Part shown: positions 14,701 through 20,700 of the stretch, one piece after another
How the letters are laid out: each line of letters starts with the position of its first letter
How positions within the stretch are numbered: the first letter of the stretch is position 1
NCBI RefSeq assembly: GCF_030013205.1
Contig: NZ_CP122648.1
Strand: one strand, 5' to 3'
DNA from: Escherichia coli
GTDB lineage: Bacteria > Pseudomonadota > Gammaproteobacteria > Enterobacterales > Enterobacteriaceae
DNA: 64,000 nucleotides
Position numbers: made by a program

Positions 14701-17700
14701 AAGCTGCTCGATAAGCTGCCGGATGTGGTTTAAGGAGGAACAATGTCATACCCACTTTTTGACAAAGACGAGCACTGGCATAAGCCAGAGCAGGCGTTTC
14801 TCACCGATGACCACCGGGCCATTCTGCGCTTCGCCGTAGAGGCGCTAATGTCCGGTAAAGGAGCGGTGCTGGTGACGCTGGTGGAGATACGCGGCGGCGC
14901 GGCGCGCCCGCTCGGAGCACAGATGGTAGTGCGCGAAGATGGTCGTTACTGCGGTTTTGTCTCTGGCGGCTGCGTGGAGGCCGCTGCCGCTTTTGAAGCG
15001 CTGGAGGTGATGGGCTCAGGCTGCGATCGCGAAATTCGCTATGGCGAAGGTTCGCCGTGGTTTGACATCGTTCTGCCCTGCGGCGGTGGGATCACGCTGA
15101 CGCTCCATAAACTACGCTCGGCACAGCCTCTGCTCGCCGTGCTGAACCGCCTGGAACAGAGAAAACCGTCGGGTCTGCGCTACGATCCGCAAGCTCAATC
15201 GCTGGTGTGCCTGCCCACGCAAACCCGGACGGGCTGGAATCTCAATGGCTTTGAGGTGGGGTTCAGGCCATGCGTCAGGCTGATGATTTACGGACGTTCT
15301 CTTGAGGCGCAGGCAACCGCGAGTCTTGCAGCAGCCACAGGATATGACAGCCATATCTTCGATCTTTTTCCGGCCTCAGCCAGCGCTCAGATCGATACCG
15401 ATACGGCGGTCATTTTGCTGTGCCATGATCTCAACCGGGAGCTGCCAGTGTTGCAGGCCGCGCGAGAAGCAAAACCCTTTTATCTCGGCGCATTGGGCAG
15501 CTATCGAACCCACACTTTACGTCTGCAAAAGCTCCACGAGCTGGGATGGTCCAGGGAGGAGACAGAGCAAATCCGGGCACCTGTCGGGATATTCCCCAAA
15601 GCCCGGGATGCGCATACTCTGGCCCTTTCCGTACTGGCAGAAGTCGCCGCTGTACGTCTCCGTCAGGAGGATTCATGCCTGCCCCCATCGTCCTGATCCT
15701 CGCGGCGGGGCGTGGGGAGCGCTTCCTCACCTCCGGGGGAAATACCCATAAATTAAGAGAAAAATCTGCAGTAGCCGTTTAAGAAAATCACCTAAATCGT
15801 TTAAAAGAGCGCCCAACCCATAGTGGGCGCTTATCGCCTTGTGTAACTTATTCAGCAACGCGCGCCTCGCCGGACTAAAGCGCACCGGCCTTCTGGCGTG
15901 CGGTAACAAAGGTCAGTACGCCAGCGCAAAGGAGCAGCACGCTACTCATAGCAAACGTGCTCTGCCAGCCAAGGCGGTCAAACACAATGCCTCCTGCCGT
16001 TGATCCAAGGGCGATGGCGAGCTGAATCACCGCGACCATGAGCCCGCCTCCAGCTTCGGCGTTGTCAGGCAACGTACGCGCAATCCATGTCCACCATCCG
16101 GTTGGCGCGGCGGTGGCCAGCATGCCCCAGAGTCCTAACAGCAGCGAGACCGTCCAGACGTGATGCCCGGTAAGCATCAGACCGATGGCAATGACGGCCA
16201 TCAGTCCGGGTATGGCCATCAGCGTGGGGTAGAATTTTCTGTTGAGAAATGCCGAAACAACCAGCGTGCCAATAAAACCGGCCACGCCGATAATCAGCAA
16301 AATCGACGACAAGCCTAAGGAATTAACCCGTGTCACCGACTCCAGAAACGGGCGCACATAGGTGAATAGTGCAAACTGCCCCATGAAAAACAGGCCACAA
16401 GCTATCATGCCGACCACAACCATGCGGCGGCTAAATAAGCGGAATACCGCGCCACATGAAGTGTGGCTTTTATTCGCATCCATGCTTGGCAGGCTGATGC
16501 ACTGCCAGATAAAGGCGACAACCGCGATGGGCACCAGGCACAAGAAAGCGCCTCGCCATCCGACCGTAGCCCCCAGATAGCTTCCCAGCGGTGCGGCCAC
16601 GACCGTCGCCAGCGCATTACCGGCGTTGAAAATTGCCAGCGCACGCGTGACCTGATGCTGCGGCACCAGACGAATCGCCGTTGCCGCTGACATCGACCAG
16701 AATCCGCCAATAGCCACACCAATCATCGCACGACCGACCATATACATCAGATAACTGGAAGCCAGCGCAATAATAAGCCCCGATACGGCCATCAGAACCG
16801 TCATCCCCAGCAGCAGGAACTTACGATTCATCTTTCCAGCTAGCGTTGAAAGCGTCAGGCTGGTCAGAACCGCCAGCGCGCCGGAGATAGCAATCCCCTG
16901 CCCTGCCAGCCCCTCCGTCACGCCTAAATCGCGGGTAATCGGCGTGAGCAGGCTGACGGGCATAAATTCAGAAGCAATCAGCACAAACACGCACAGGGTC
17001 ATGGCAAAAATACCGCCCCAGTATGCGCGCTGATGATGAGGTGATAGTGTTTGGCTTAGTGTCGACATAGTGAAATTTCACAAAGATCAGGATAAAAGCC
17101 ACCAGCCTATGGCCGGTGGCTTTGCATCAATTCAGGAGAGGTTTTATTTCAGTTTGGTCTGGAAAAATTGTTCGAACTTCGCGAAAGGTATTTTTCCGGC
17201 CACGTTATCGTACAGGTCCACGTGATTTGCCCCTGGTACCACCACCAGCTCTTTGTCTTTACTGCCAACCGCCTTGTAAGCATCTTCAGCAAAATAGCGT
17301 GAATGCGCTTTCTCACCGGTCACAATCAGCGTCGGGATGGTGATTTCACTGGCGTAGCTCAACAGCGGCATATTCATAAATGACAGCGGCATCGTTGCCG
17401 TCCACGCCCCGGTAGAGTTAACGGAACGTTCGTGGAAGCCGCGCGGCATGCGATAGTAGTCAAAGAACTCTTTCAGTACCGGATGAGGATTTGCCGGCAG
17501 CGTTTCTGGCAGAATACGATCGCCCGCACTGACCTTGCCGTTGCTGTCGACATTAATATCATGACCACCATGAGCGAACGTTCCGCTCTGCGCATCCTTC
17601 CAGCGCTGTTCATTCAGATATTGCAGAACAGCACGACGGTCGGCGGTAGAATAACGGTCTTTGCCATCCCCCACACCATGGCCCATCGCCCGGCTCATGT

Positions 17701-20700
17701 CATACATCACGCTGGTAGCTACCGCTTTAACGCGGGTATCCATCGCCGCGTCGTTTAGCGCCATGCCGCCCCAGCCACAAATACCGAGCAGCCCGATACG
17801 GTTGCGATCTACCTCTTTTTGCAGCCCTAAGAAATCCACCGCCGCGCTGAAATCTTCAGTGTTGATATCCGGTGAGGCGACGTTTCGCGGATAGCCGCCG
17901 CTTTCCCCGGTGTAAGAAGGATCGAACGCCAGGGTAACAAACCCTCGTTCCGCCAGCGTCTGCGCATACAAGCCGCTGGATTGCTCTTTCACCGCGCCAA
18001 ATGGCCCACTGACCGCAATCGCCGCCAGCTTGCGATCGCCACGGTCTTTAGGCAGGTAAAGATCGCCCACTAAGGTGATGCCATATCGGTTCGGGAACGA
18101 GACTTTACGGTGATCGACTTTCTGGCTCTCGGCGAACGTTTTATCCCATTTATCTGTCATGGACACAGGGGCATTAGGATTGGTTGAATCAGCATAACTC
18201 ATTGTCGTGACTCCACTTAATGATGCGAAAAGCAGCATGGTCGGCATCGCGGTTTTTAGCGTGCGGGTGAAGGCTTTCATAAAAATCCCCATAAAAAACA
18301 ACAGAGAGATACAGGTTTCCGACGGACAACGCTGCGGTGCTTTACTTTGATGGGGTCATTATAGTGAGCAGAATTAGTGCTGATTAGGGGGCGATTAATG
18401 CTAAGATTAATACCATATTGTTATAAATTAATGCGGAGATTGCCGGCATGAAGGGGGGATGTTTCAATGGCGAAAAGGGAGAACTACAACGAGCTGTACC
18501 TGTTTATGCAGGTGGTGCGGGAAGGCAGCTTTACCGCAGCGGCTCAGCGGCTGGGTCTTGCTCAGTCAGGAGTCAGCCGTTCTGTTCGCGAGCTTGAAGA
18601 AAGGCTGGGCGTCCAGCTGCTAGTGCGCACCACGCGTAAACTGTCGCTGACACAAGCAGGCGAGCAGCTCTACCAGAAGACGGCATCTGGATTTGAAATG
18701 TTAGATCTTGGGCTTGCCACGCTGGCGCACTATCGAGAGACGCCCTCCGGCACGGTGCGTATCAATGCCAGCCAGCACGCGATTGATAAATGCCTGCTGC
18801 CAAAGCTGGCGGTATTTAAACAGAGATATCCTGATATCCGGCTTGAACTGATAAATGAGAGCCGGTTCGTCGATATCATCGAGGAAAGATTCGATGCAGG
18901 TGTCCGCCTGGGGCCTGAAGTCGGCCAGGGTATGGTCGCGGTACGCATCACGCCCGATATGGAGATGGCAATTGTGGGGACTCCGGAACATTTTCGTCGC
19001 TATGGTTTTCCGCAAACCCCGGCGGATTTAAAGGCGCATCCCTGTATCGCCTATCAGTTTGCCGACGGCAGCGTATACCAGTGGGAACTCAATCAGGATG
19101 ATAAAAAAATCACTCATCGCCCTGAAGGGCAATGGGCCCTATCCGACAGCTATATGGAAGCAGAAGCCGCCCGGCTGGGCCTCGGATTGGCCTATGTTCC
19201 TGTTGAACTGGTCGCGGATGATTTAGAACACGGTAAGCTTATCAGGGTGTTGCAGCGTTACAGCCTGCGAATGGAGGGATTGTTTCTCTATTACCCTCAT
19301 CGCAACGTCTCCCCCGCCCTGCGGATGGTCATTGATACATTGAAAATCTGAACGTTAACAACGACCGACTCTTTACTGTGCAATATTGTGTCAGGTAGTC
19401 CCTCTGCGTTCAATTCCAGGGTCTGCTTTGAGCGAGAAAGAGAGGACTATCCAGCAATGGAGATCACCCAAAAGAAAAAACCACCTGGCTCCCTCGACAA
19501 CCTTCATCCGGGCATTGAGCCTCAATCAACATTTTTATATCTGTCAGGTTACTTCATTATGAAAACTGATCATCATCGTTGTTTTTGTTGCAATAGTAGA
19601 ATACGCGTATTTATTCCTCCATCTCTATTAATAACGGCAATAAACTGTTCACTTCACTGATATTTAAAATATGTATCCTTTTCAAGCTGTTCAGCGGCGT
19701 AAGAAAAAGTATTGATTATGAATTCGACGATTTAACCATTTCTGGCTGATTGGTAATCATCTGTGATTAATGCTGGTCTATTGATTACGCCAGCACCCTC
19801 TCTAGCTTATTCACCGCCGCCACATACTTCGCCGGATTTTTATCTTTCAGCACCGCCAGATTACGTTGCTTCCAGCGAATAGCCGGAAGATGCTGAATTT
19901 CAGGATAGCGATACCGCGACCAGTCAGGGCTGTTTTGCTTAAAACTGAGCAAGAACTCGCGATCCAGATCCGTAAGATGTGACTTCAACGCCTGCGGCAG
20001 CAAAGTCGTTACTGACAGCAGCGATTCCAGCGACGTTTCCTGCTGAGTCATCCCCGAAAATTCCTGAGCATACAGCGTCGTGATCCGCTCTATATCCCAG
20101 TTTGGGGCCAGCAACTCGGCAATGGGGCGGGGATGGCCTGCCAGATAACAAAGAAAACCGTCAAAGATCTCCCGCATCAGTCCCGGTTTCTCCAGCATAT
20201 TCAGCACATCAAACAGATCGCGCGGGTGCTGACGATCAAGCGCTGCGCAGATTTTACCGCCATAAAGATCCGCCAGCGAGACGACACTCATGGTGGTGAA
20301 GCCATACTCCATTTCCACACGTTCGCACACAGGCATTTCTGCCGGAGGCAACAACAGCCCGCGCCAGACCGGGCTAACCTCGATCTTAATCTTTGCATCA
20401 GCGGTATTCACAATGATGCGCTTTTCATCCGCTTTATTTTCCTGCCGAATCGCGGTGATCCCCGGTCTGCCGTTCAGCGATGCAGTAATCCTCTTCAAAG
20501 CGTCGTTGATAGCCGCCAGATCAGTATCGCGATCCGCAAAGCTCTTATACGCCAGATCAATATCCACCGACAGACGGGGAAAATCCTGCACAAACAAATT
20601 GATTGCCGTGCCGCCTTTCAACGCGAAACAGGACTCCTTCGCCACATGCGGCAGAGCAGCCATCAACAGCTTAACCTGCCGGGCATAACTATCACGCAGA

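What the first reader, a model, noticed from the sequence alone, without database searches (positions are those of the whole stretch)
15875..19351. MFS transporter, secreted alpha/beta hydrolase and LysR regulator cluster between paoD and the island
Three intact genes (MFS and hydrolase on the minus strand, LysR divergent) occupy the position where, as I recall, K-12 has only a truncated LysR-type yagP next to the CP4-6 end. This may be the ancestral arrangement that K-12 lost, and could be a small substrate-specific detoxification or catabolic module under LysR control.
Basis: partly seen in the sequence, partly recalled or inferred. Interest (0 to 1): 0.3.

Follow-up and report, generated by a model that had tools for sequence, protein, structure and literature searches.

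The report
LysR-controlled exported hydrolase and transporter cassette
Three intact genes next to paoD form a mobile cassette of unknown substrate (a LysR regulator, an exported cysteine-type hydrolase and an efflux-type transporter) that about one in six E. coli strains carry and K-12 lost in a 6.1-kb deletion; it is ordinary accessory DNA, but nobody has characterised it.

Summary
Window 15875-19351 carries an intact MFS transporter (-), an alpha/beta hydrolase (-) and a divergent LysR regulator (+).

The locus is 100% identical to E. coli K_EC180, and 912 of 5,426 complete E. coli genomes have it between paoD and thrW.

The K-12 comparison is only partly right. yagP is not a remnant of this LysR (28% identity). 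It is the 3' end of a second LysR gene, which is intact in O157:H7 beside an SDR oxidoreductase. K-12-type genomes (at least 2,665) share one 6,129-bp deletion that removed both modules. The window itself has lost the SDR/LysR2 pair, and a 9.1-kb AbiE/type I restriction island sits in its place.

The three genes are a real unit:
- The triad is conserved across Proteobacteria.
- It moves as a 3.5-kb cassette (91.8% nucleotide identity to Kluyvera, with unrelated flanks).
- It is the only cargo of a Tn3-family transposon on a Salmonella plasmid.
- Its intergenic region has a conserved LysR-type promoter layout.

The hydrolase is exported and has an invariant Cys at the nucleophile position. It is a close relative of P. 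aeruginosa PA2218 (PDB 2HDW, function unknown). Hydrolase and regulator are paralogues of E. coli ycjY and pgrR.

The most likely function is inducible export plus periplasmic hydrolysis of an ester, lactone or thioester compound. The substrate is unknown.

The parts
14743..15696 (+). paoD, the left core flank. Homology with K-12 continues to 15751, 55 nt past the paoD stop codon, and then stops.
15859..19436 (.). The 3.58-kb cassette, the unit of horizontal transfer. It is 91.8% nucleotide-identical to Kluyvera genomosp. 1 and 86.6% to Serratia marcescens UMH3, and the flanks in those genomes are unrelated. GC is 54.1%, against 51.3% for the whole window.
15875..17068 (-). MFS transporter, 397 aa, about 12 hydrophobic segments, second gene of the operon. 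RefSeq calls a start 22 codons further in (17002). The longer form matches homologues and the NepI profile from residue 13 onward.
17144..18280 (-). Exported alpha/beta hydrolase of the PA2218/YcjY family, 378 aa, first gene of the operon.
18191..18280 (-). Codons 1-30 of the hydrolase: a Sec-type signal peptide with predicted cleavage after SYA30. In the structure model this stretch has pLDDT below 50.
17777..17779 (-). Codon for Cys168 in the nucleophile elbow G-I-C-G-W-G-G. It is invariant in 81 homologues and aligns with the Ser of G-I-S-L-G-G in PDB 7QJM.
17222..17224 (-). Codon for His353 (motif GANHVDLYD), invariant. It is the presumed catalytic His.
18358..18363 (-). Perfect TATAAT -10 hexamer for the hydrolase-MFS operon, invariant in 12 enterobacterial loci. 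The matching -35 (TAATCA, 18381-18386) is poor.
18377..18387 (.). Conserved CTAATCAGCAC element (read on the minus strand) overlapping the -35. It is a candidate activation site for the LysR protein.
18410..18424 (.). T-N11-A dyad ATAACAATATGGTAT (read on the minus strand), lying in the most conserved block of the intergenic alignment (most columns invariant), centred about 66 nt upstream of the predicted operon transcription start. It overlaps the candidate lysR -10 (TATAAA, 18422-18427). It is a candidate LysR recognition site.
18467..19351 (+). LysR-type regulator (LysR1), 294 aa, transcribed divergently from the operon. It is 41% identical to E. coli PgrR/YcjZ and only 28% identical to K-12 YagP.
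19563..19679 (+). N-terminally truncated ykgR paralogue. It lies in E. coli backbone shared with O157:H7 and MS 198-1, and that backbone ends at 19795.
19796..28898 (.). The 9.1-kb island (AbiEii/AbiEi, HsdR/M/S, an ash-family gene, an integrase fragment). It occupies the place where O157:H7 has hyp-SDR-LysR2 and MS 198-1 has a 456-bp LysR2 remnant. This is context, not part of the cassette.
28917..28992 (-). tRNA-Thr (CGU), thrW, the right anchor of the variable region.

Best explanation
This is a self-contained, horizontally mobile three-gene cassette.

Proposed mechanism (inferred from anatomy):
- LysR1 binds the conserved T-N11-A dyad about 66 nt upstream of the operon start. That site also overlaps its own promoter.
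- On sensing a small-molecule inducer, LysR1 activates a promoter with a perfect -10 and a poor -35, which drives a bicistronic hydrolase-MFS operon.
- The hydrolase is exported by the Sec pathway to the periplasm.
- There a Cys168/His353/acid triad on an alpha/beta-hydrolase fold cleaves an ester, lactone, thioester or similar bond.
- The MFS protein belongs to the efflux-type group (relatives of NepI, SotB and Cmx). It most likely pumps the compound, or its toxic form, out of the cytoplasm. The pair then works as 'export and hydrolyse', an inducible detoxification or resistance module.

Shown here: gene integrity; conservation of the triad; the cassette as a unit of transfer and as transposon cargo; the conserved promoter and operator layout; the signal peptide; the invariant Cys at the nucleophile position; the evolutionary history in E. 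coli.

Inferred, not shown: regulator binding and activation; transport direction; reaction chemistry. The substrate is unknown.

Evolutionary history: the long form is paoD | MFS-hydrolase<->LysR1 | ykgR' | hyp-SDR<->LysR2 | thrW. A single 6,129-bp deletion with CATAA microhomology gave the K-12 type. Independent events removed SDR/LysR2 in the window's lineage.
For: A functional unit:
- The order LysR<->hydrolase-MFS is kept in Kluyvera, Serratia, Phytobacter, Lelliottia, Hafnia, Enterobacter, Aeromonas, Psychrobacter and Vogesella.
- The variant order LysR<->MFS-hydrolase occurs in Bosea, Devosia, Novosphingobium, Rhizobium, Brevundimonas and Pseudomonas.

Mobile as a unit:
- Homology with Kluyvera and Serratia is confined to the cassette.
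- The triad is on plasmids of Klebsiella, Kosakonia, Pantoea and Salmonella.
- In Salmonella plasmid pSAbAus it lies between 38-bp Tn3-type terminal repeats, with only tnpA, tnpR and a small BhsA-like gene.
- A P. aeruginosa isolate lacks a 4,150-bp fragment holding PA2218 and PA2219 (PMC8088628).

Regulation: 12 enterobacterial intergenic regions share an invariant TATAAT, a T-N11-A dyad that sits in the most conserved block, and a -35-overlapping element.

Hydrolase:
- E 9e-125 to PA2218 (2HDW).
- The structure model has pLDDT 85.6 and target-normalised TM-score 0.95 to 2HDW.
- Cys168, His353, Asp355 and Glu323 are invariant or nearly so.
- Cys168 aligns with the nucleophile Ser of 7QJM.
- Export signals are present in 77 of 81 homologues, including twin-arginine motifs in alpha-proteobacteria.

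MFS: the best profile is the efflux pump NepI (E 2e-86), followed by sugar efflux and Cmx/CmrA. The closest solved structure is the sugar efflux transporter 6KKI.

A detoxification flavour: neighbours of homologues in other phyla are glyoxalase/VOC proteins, flavodoxin-like reductases, alcohol dehydrogenases, hexapeptide acetyltransferases and AraC regulators. The cassette itself carries no downstream catabolic enzymes.

History in E. coli.
Against: - No experiment or paper gives a substrate or phenotype for this hydrolase, PA2218 or YcjY.
- Transport direction is inferred only from family resemblance. The NepI score (290 bits) is far below the family cut-off of 584.
- The acid residue of the triad is not assigned.
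- The simple promoter scan did not flag the proposed promoter because its -35 is poor. The transcription start is predicted, not mapped.
- The neighbourhood evidence from other phyla is heterogeneous.
- The paralogy with ycjY-pgrR, and the Klebsiella location beside mppA-mpaA-ycjG, point to a different physiological role.
Confidence: 0.5

Rival explanations
1. Scavenging or catabolic module. The periplasmic hydrolase releases a usable product from an ester, amide or lactone nutrient. The MFS protein imports that product, and LysR1 senses it.
For: An exported hydrolase placed next to an inner-membrane transporter fits uptake as well as it fits efflux. The nearest structural relatives with known function include feruloyl and chlorogenic acid esterases, monoglyceride lipases and acetyl-xylan esterases, all of which act on nutrients. 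LysR regulators commonly control catabolic operons (general knowledge).
Against: Every close MFS profile hit is an exporter: NepI, sugar efflux, Cmx/CmrA, AraJ and Bcr/CflA, and likewise 6KKI. The cassette carries no catabolic enzymes yet transfers alone, including as the only transposon cargo. Neighbours in other phyla look like detoxification genes.
Confidence: 0.25
2. Cell-envelope or murein-peptide turnover. The hydrolase is a periplasmic counterpart of YcjY, acting on peptidoglycan-derived peptides or a related envelope compound. The MFS protein moves the substrate or product, and LysR1 acts like PgrR.
For: LysR1 is 41% identical to PgrR over its full length (E 9e-74), and the hydrolase is 34% identical to YcjY (E 6e-49). 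ycjY and pgrR are also divergent neighbours. PgrR is listed as the regulator of peptidoglycan recycling, with ycjY...mpaA in its regulon (PMC5934670). In K. pneumoniae the triad lies within 3 kb of the mppA, mpaA, ycjG and tpx orthologues. Other periplasmic cysteine-dependent enzymes act on murein peptides (general knowledge).
Against: YcjY's own activity is unknown. YcjY lacks the first 56 residues and the signal peptide. The murein-gene neighbourhood was seen only in Klebsiella, not in 12 other enterobacterial loci. The MFS protein shows no specific resemblance to a muropeptide permease.
Confidence: 0.12
3. One reading: the window shows the ancestral arrangement, and K-12's yagP is the truncated remnant of this same LysR gene.
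For: K-12 has a truncated LysR-type gene at the equivalent place, and K-12-type genomes do derive from a longer form by deletion.
Against: YagP and LysR1 are 28% identical, with no nucleotide match. yagP aligns at about 97% with the 3' end of a different gene, LysR2 of O157:H7. The window lacks LysR2, SDR and hyp, and has an island in their place.
Confidence: 0.03
4. Three unrelated neighbouring genes with no functional link.
For: There is no direct expression or interaction data.
Against: The triad is conserved across three proteobacterial classes in two gene orders. It is co-transferred with unrelated flanks. It is the sole transposon cargo. The divergent promoter region is conserved.
Confidence: 0.03

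Closest known systems
P. aeruginosa PA2218 (PDB 2HDW), with neighbouring PA2219 (opdE)
   Same: 58-60% identical over the whole mature protein (E 9e-125). The fold is the same (target-normalised TM-score 0.95) and so is the G-I-C-G-W-G-G elbow. PA2218 and PA2219 are also lost together as a 4,150-bp block in a clinical isolate (PMC8088628). PA2219 is annotated 'membrane protein OpdE'.
   Different: PA2218 came from structural genomics and has no assigned function, so the match gives no substrate. It lacks a 17-residue insertion present in the enterobacterial proteins. I did not verify here that PA2219 is an MFS protein or that PA2220 is a LysR regulator; that is from memory.
E. coli ycjY-pgrR (ycjZ) pair of the PgrR peptidoglycan-recycling regulon
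   Same: A paralogous pair in the same divergent layout: hydrolase 34% identical and regulator 41% identical. The Cys elbow and the His are conserved. YcjY has a solved structure, 5XB6.
   Different: YcjY has no signal peptide and no N-terminal 56 residues, so it is cytoplasmic. Its operon continues into ymjD-ymjC-mpaA rather than an MFS gene. PgrR is described as a repressor. YcjY's activity is itself unknown.
Dienelactone hydrolase type Cys-His-Asp alpha/beta hydrolases (Pfam PF01738)
   Same: An alpha/beta fold with a cysteine at the nucleophile elbow, and a borderline Pfam hit over the elbow region (21.1 bits against a cut-off of 21).
   Different: The hit is partial (residues 146-195). 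The protein is larger, with a lid insertion, and is exported. Activity on dienelactone has not been tested.
NepI, SotB and Cmx-type MFS exporters
   Same: The best profile matches (NepI E 2e-86) and the closest solved structure (6KKI). About 12 transmembrane segments.
   Different: It scores far below every family cut-off (290 against 584 for NepI), so it is not an orthologue. Substrate and direction are untested.
Tn3-family transposons carrying passenger resistance or catabolic modules
   Same: On Salmonella plasmid pSAbAus the triad is the cargo between 38-bp GGGG... terminal repeats, with tnpA and tnpR.
   Different: In the window there are no transposon repeats or transposase genes around the cassette. 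The Salmonella copy shows no target-site duplication, and it is only about 73% nucleotide-identical to the window's.

Membership tests
LysR-type transcriptional regulators | N-terminal HTH_1 domain plus a C-terminal LysR substrate-binding domain | tested here: met
   PF00126 at E 1.4e-23 (83 bits) and PF03466 at E 4.7e-35 (121 bits), both above their cut-offs
LysR-type transcriptional regulators | Divergent transcription from the regulated operon, with a T-N11-A dyad near -65 | tested here: met
   The divergent layout is kept in many genera. The dyad ATAACAATATGGTAT at 18410-18424 sits in the most conserved block of the 12-locus intergenic alignment. Protein binding itself was not tested.
Orthologue of K-12 YagP (b0282) | High identity to YagP at the syntenic position | tested here: not met
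   28% identity over 107 residues and no nucleotide match. YagP instead matches LysR2 of O157:H7.
PA2218/YcjY family alpha/beta hydrolases | Full-length sequence and fold similarity to 2HDW and 5XB6 | tested here: met
   E 9e-125 and 8e-44. Foldseek E 7.5e-46, target-normalised TM-score 0.95 to 2HDW and 0.91 to 5XB6.
PA2218/YcjY family alpha/beta hydrolases | A G-x-C-x-G nucleophile elbow and a conserved His | tested here: met
   Cys168 and His353 are invariant in 81 homologues and in YcjY. Cys168 aligns with the Ser of 7QJM. Catalysis was not tested.
Dienelactone hydrolase family (PF01738) | A Pfam score above the gathering threshold across the domain | tested here: inconclusive
   21.1 bits against a cut-off of 21, and only residues 146-195 are matched
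PET hydrolase-like (PF12740) | A Ser nucleophile in G-x-S-x-G and a match over the full domain | tested here: not met
   The score (35.7 bits) passes the cut-off of 28, but it covers only residues 62-204, and the nucleophile position holds Cys, not Ser
UilS family N-acyl-homoserine lactonase (NF047920) | An NCBIfam equivalog score of at least 400 bits | tested here: not met
   67 bits, and only a partial match
NepI purine ribonucleoside efflux pump (NF007578) | An NCBIfam equivalog score of at least 584 bits | tested here: not met
   290 bits. It is a relative, not a member.
Major facilitator superfamily | The MFS_1 domain and about 12 transmembrane segments | tested here: met
   PF07690 at E 1.3e-37. 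The hydropathy profile shows about 12 segments.
Sec-exported periplasmic protein | An N-terminal signal peptide: a positively charged start, a hydrophobic core, and small residues at -3 and -1 | tested here: met
   The sequence is MKAFTRTLKTAMPTMLLFASLSGVTTMSYA|D, conserved with its Shine-Dalgarno sequence. No dedicated predictor or experiment was available.
Tn3-family transposon cargo | 38-bp terminal inverted repeats and tnpA/tnpR flanking the module | tested here: not met
   This holds for the Salmonella plasmid copy, but the window has no such repeats or genes.

The most novel reading that the evidence does not exclude
The cassette is a mobile resistance or detoxification determinant of a kind not yet described. 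An exported cysteine-nucleophile alpha/beta hydrolase would be paired with an efflux pump and induced by its own LysR sensor. It would protect against an unidentified ester-, lactone- or thioester-containing natural product or xenobiotic, and would already be spreading on plasmids and a Tn3-family transposon.
Probability: 0.2. Interest if true: 0.6.

Novelty: new member of a known kind. Interest (0 to 1): 0.3.

Why it matters
- It corrects a likely misreading of the K-12 pseudogene yagP. yagP is the stump of a second regulator, left by a 6.1-kb deletion that at least 2,665 of 5,426 complete E. coli genomes share. That deletion removed two small LysR-controlled modules.
- It marks the paoD-thrW interval as a repeatedly remodelled spot.
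- It identifies a compact three-gene cassette of unknown function that is widespread and mobile across genera.
- K-12 is a natural null background, and a crystal structure of a 60%-identical homologue exists. Finding the inducer and the substrate is therefore a simple, well-defined experiment.
- As it stands, this is ordinary accessory-genome content, not a new kind of system.

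Tried and rejected
- Megablast and sensitive blastn of the K-12 yagP region against the window found no match to the window's LysR. That ruled out the simple 'truncated orthologue' idea.
- The first structure model, built from an 11-sequence alignment, was unusable (pLDDT 51). It was redone with 62 sequences.
- Literature searches for PA2218, PA2219, opdE, PA2220, YcjY, yagP, 5XB6 and 2HDW found no functional study of the hydrolase.
- Rfam found nothing in 15600-19900 at E up to 0.1.
- The conserved roughly 70-nt 5' leader of the hydrolase mRNA gave only a weak consensus hairpin (-3.8 kcal/mol). I do not claim an RNA element.
- No Tn3-type repeats and no meaningful flanking repeats surround the cassette in the window. 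No copy of the thrW att sequence occurs at the island's left edge.
- The simple sigma-70 scan did not pick up the proposed promoter, and its terminator hits lie inside genes.
The absence of E. albertii and E. fergusonii among the loci is therefore not evidence that they lack the cassette.
- PETase, UilS lactonase and NepI memberships were considered and rejected on scores and on the nucleophile residue.

Full report
**Observation**

Pfam and NCBIfam confirm the classes.

The stretch 15700-19700 is 100% identical to E. coli K_EC180 from swine. RefSeq annotates the same three genes there, between paoD and an AbiE/type I restriction island that ends at tRNA-Thr thrW and proA.

**Comparison with K-12**

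MG1655 has paoD, then the 136-codon yagP, then intF at the end of CP4-6. Homology between K-12 and the window stops 55 nt after the paoD stop codon (window 15751). It resumes only at the thrW-proximal sequence, 28899-28968.

YagP is only 28% identical to the window's LysR, so it is not a truncated copy of it. O157:H7 resolves the question. It has paoD | MFS, hydrolase <-> LysR1 | ykgR fragment | hypothetical, SDR oxidoreductase <-> LysR2 | att/thrW island, and yagP matches the 3' end of LysR2 at about 97%.

- Relative to O157:H7, K-12-type genomes carry a 6,129-bp deletion. This includes strain NT1F34, which has paoD-yagP'-thrW and no prophage.
- The deletion runs from just after paoD into the middle of LysR2, and the junction shows CATAA microhomology.
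- Every K-12-type hit sampled starts at the same position in LysR2. This points to a single event.
- Strain MS 198-1 keeps the triad, with a LysR1 protein identical to the window's. It lost hyp-SDR and the 5' part of LysR2 through a different deletion, and it has no island.
- In the window, 9,103 bp (19796-28898) replace the 456 bp that MS 198-1 has there.

The window is therefore one derived state, not the ancestral one.

**Population figures**

Among 5,426 complete E. coli genomes:
- 912 hold at least 80% of the triad query, and the top hits cover both flanks.
- 388 hold the SDR/LysR2 segment.
- At least 2,665 hold the K-12-type paoD-yagP' junction.
- The rest have other states. In SF-088, for example, a prophage abuts thrW and there is no pao gene within 9 kb.

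Between the window and O157:H7 the triad genes are 97.2-98.6% identical. The flanking pao genes are 98.0% identical. The triad was therefore already present when these two lineages split.

**The triad is a unit, and it is mobile**

Among 80 loci holding hydrolase homologues in other species, the order LysR <-> hydrolase-MFS recurs in Enterobacterales, Aeromonas, Psychrobacter and Vogesella. The order LysR <-> MFS-hydrolase recurs in several alpha-proteobacteria and Pseudomonas.

- The window's cassette (15859-19436) is 91.8% nucleotide-identical to Kluyvera genomosp. 1 and 86.6% to Serratia marcescens UMH3.
- Homology between the Kluyvera and Serratia loci is confined to the cassette.
- Cassette GC is 54.1%, against 51.3% for the window.
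- The triad also sits on plasmids of Klebsiella, Kosakonia, Pantoea and Salmonella.
- In Salmonella IncFIB plasmid pSAbAus it lies with tnpA, tnpR and a small BhsA-like gene between two 38-bp Tn3-type terminal repeats. It is therefore the transposon's cargo.
- A P. aeruginosa isolate is reported to lack a 4,150-bp fragment containing PA2218 and PA2219 (PMC8088628).
- No transposon traces flank the cassette in the window.

**Hydrolase**

- *Start and export.* Most database homologues are 378 aa, starting at the ATG at 18280. That start has a conserved Shine-Dalgarno sequence and a conserved Sec-type signal peptide. Of 81 homologues, 77 have an N-terminal export signal, including clear twin-arginine motifs in alpha-proteobacteria. 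The RefSeq start in K_EC180 (352 aa) removes the signal peptide and is probably wrong.
- *Relatives.* The protein is a close relative of PA2218 (PDB 2HDW, E 9e-125) and a more distant one of E. coli YcjY (5XB6).
- *Structure.* A model built from 62 sequences has pLDDT 85.6 and superposes on 2HDW with target-normalised TM-score 0.95.
- *Catalytic residues.* The nucleophile elbow reads G-I-C-G-W-G-G. Cys168 and His353 are invariant, Asp355 is nearly so (80 of 81), and the Cys aligns with the Ser of G-I-S-L-G-G in 7QJM.
- *Functional neighbours.* The next structural neighbours with known function are thioesterase DcsB, GrgF, feruloyl and chlorogenic acid esterases, monoglyceride lipases and acetyl esterases. 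These indicate the chemistry, acyl transfer to water, but not the substrate.

**Transporter and regulator**

The MFS protein has about 12 hydrophobic segments. Its best matches are exporters: NepI at E 2e-86, but 290 bits against a cut-off of 584, followed by sugar efflux and Cmx/CmrA. The closest solved structure is the sugar efflux transporter 6KKI.

LysR1 has both LysR domains. It is 41% identical to PgrR/YcjZ, and the gene for PgrR lies divergent to ycjY in K-12. The hydrolase is 34% identical to YcjY. The two pairs are thus paralogous.

**Promoter region**

An alignment of 12 enterobacterial intergenic regions shows an invariant TATAAT (window 18363-18358, minus strand). It also shows a poor -35 overlapped by the conserved element CTAATCAGCAC (18377-18387). 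Further upstream is a dyad, ATAACAATATGGTAT (18410-18424), that fits T-N11-A and sits in the most conserved block of the alignment; it is centred about 66 nt upstream of the predicted start. This is the classic layout of a LysR-activated, self-repressed divergent promoter (established knowledge of the family). Binding was not tested.

**Mechanism**

I commit to the following, at about 0.5 confidence. LysR1 senses a small molecule and switches on the hydrolase-MFS operon. The hydrolase works in the periplasm through a Cys-His-acid triad. The MFS protein exports the compound. Together they act as an inducible export-and-hydrolyse detoxification module.

Support comes from three things:
- the efflux-type relatives of the transporter;
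- the lack of catabolic genes in a cassette that transfers alone;
- the detoxification-type neighbours of homologues in other phyla: glyoxalase, flavodoxin-like reductase, alcohol dehydrogenases, acetyltransferases and AraC regulators.

Rivals:
- Hydrolysis followed by import of a nutrient (0.25).
- A role in murein-peptide or envelope turnover (0.12). This is suggested by the ycjY-pgrR paralogy, by the listing of PgrR as regulator of peptidoglycan recycling (PMC5934670), and by the Klebsiella location beside mppA-mpaA-ycjG-tpx.

**Verdict**

The genes are already annotated in hundreds of genomes, and the parts belong to known families, so this is a new member of a known kind. Interest is modest (0.3). 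The points worth keeping are the corrected origin of yagP, the two-module ancestral layout, and an uncharacterised mobile cassette with an exported cysteine hydrolase that K-12 is well suited to test.

Noticed in passing
window 19563-19679 (and 19679-19795): This is an N-terminally truncated ykgR paralogue (KLIIIVVFVAIVEYAYLFLHLY*, preceded by a stop codon). It is 90.6% identical to the real ykgR at window 285-401. In MS 198-1 the next 150 nt or so resemble window 1072-1224, the ykgO/ykgL area, at 78.6%. The backbone right of LysR1 therefore looks like a decayed duplicate of the ykgR-ykgL region.
   Followed up: partly
window 19796-28898: A 9.1-kb defence island: an AbiEii/AbiEi type IV toxin-antitoxin pair, the type I restriction genes HsdR/M/S, an ash-family gene and an integrase fragment abutting thrW. 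It replaces 456 bp of MS 198-1 rather than inserting cleanly. No att repeat occurs at its left edge. The last three codons and the stop of abiEii lie in sequence shared with island-free strains.
   Followed up: partly
L002 (K_EC180) 18176-20503 = window 15875-18202: The RefSeq start sites look too short. The hydrolase is called at 352 aa, which removes the conserved signal peptide. The MFS protein is called at 375 aa, starting inside the first hydrophobic segment.
   Followed up: yes
L003 (O157:H7 ATCC 43888) 16352-18517: A second small divergent module sits between the triad and thrW: a hypothetical 92-aa protein and an SDR oxidoreductase facing LysR2, the full-length form of K-12 yagP. It is intact in only 388 of 5,426 genomes and has been lost at least three different ways.
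   Followed up: partly
L089 (Salmonella plasmid pSAbAus) 2973-10836: A 7.9-kb Tn3-family transposon with 38-bp GGGGTTTGAGG... terminal repeats (36 of 38 matching). Its only cargo is the MFS-hydrolase-LysR triad plus a YdgH/BhsA/McbA-like gene inserted between the promoter and the hydrolase. No 5-bp target duplication was seen.
   Followed up: partly
L088 (K. pneumoniae pZ0117KP0003-2) 6904-16195: The triad lies within 3 kb of orthologues of mppA, mpaA, ycjG and tpx. That is the neighbourhood where E. coli K-12 has the paralogous ycjY-pgrR pair. The record is labelled a plasmid but carries chromosomal-type genes.
   Followed up: partly
window 18281-18351 (minus strand): The predicted 5' leader of the hydrolase mRNA, about 70 nt, contains a block (AAAGCACAGCAGCGTTGTCCGTA.GAAACCTGT) conserved in 9 of 12 enterobacterial loci. 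It has no Rfam match and only a weak consensus hairpin. Three loci lack the leader entirely.
   Followed up: partly
window 10893-15696: The paoABCD operon is 59.2% GC (GC3 of paoC is 66%), against 51.3% for the window. The whole pao-to-LysR1 stretch is compositionally atypical for E. coli.
   Followed up: no
plasmid-collection hits H91, H93, H98: Several records in the plasmid collection that carry the triad are 4.9-5.4 Mb long and so are evidently chromosomes. Two E. coli 'plasmids' of 30 and 64 kb carry the chromosomal pao-side triad and may be assembly fragments.
   Followed up: no
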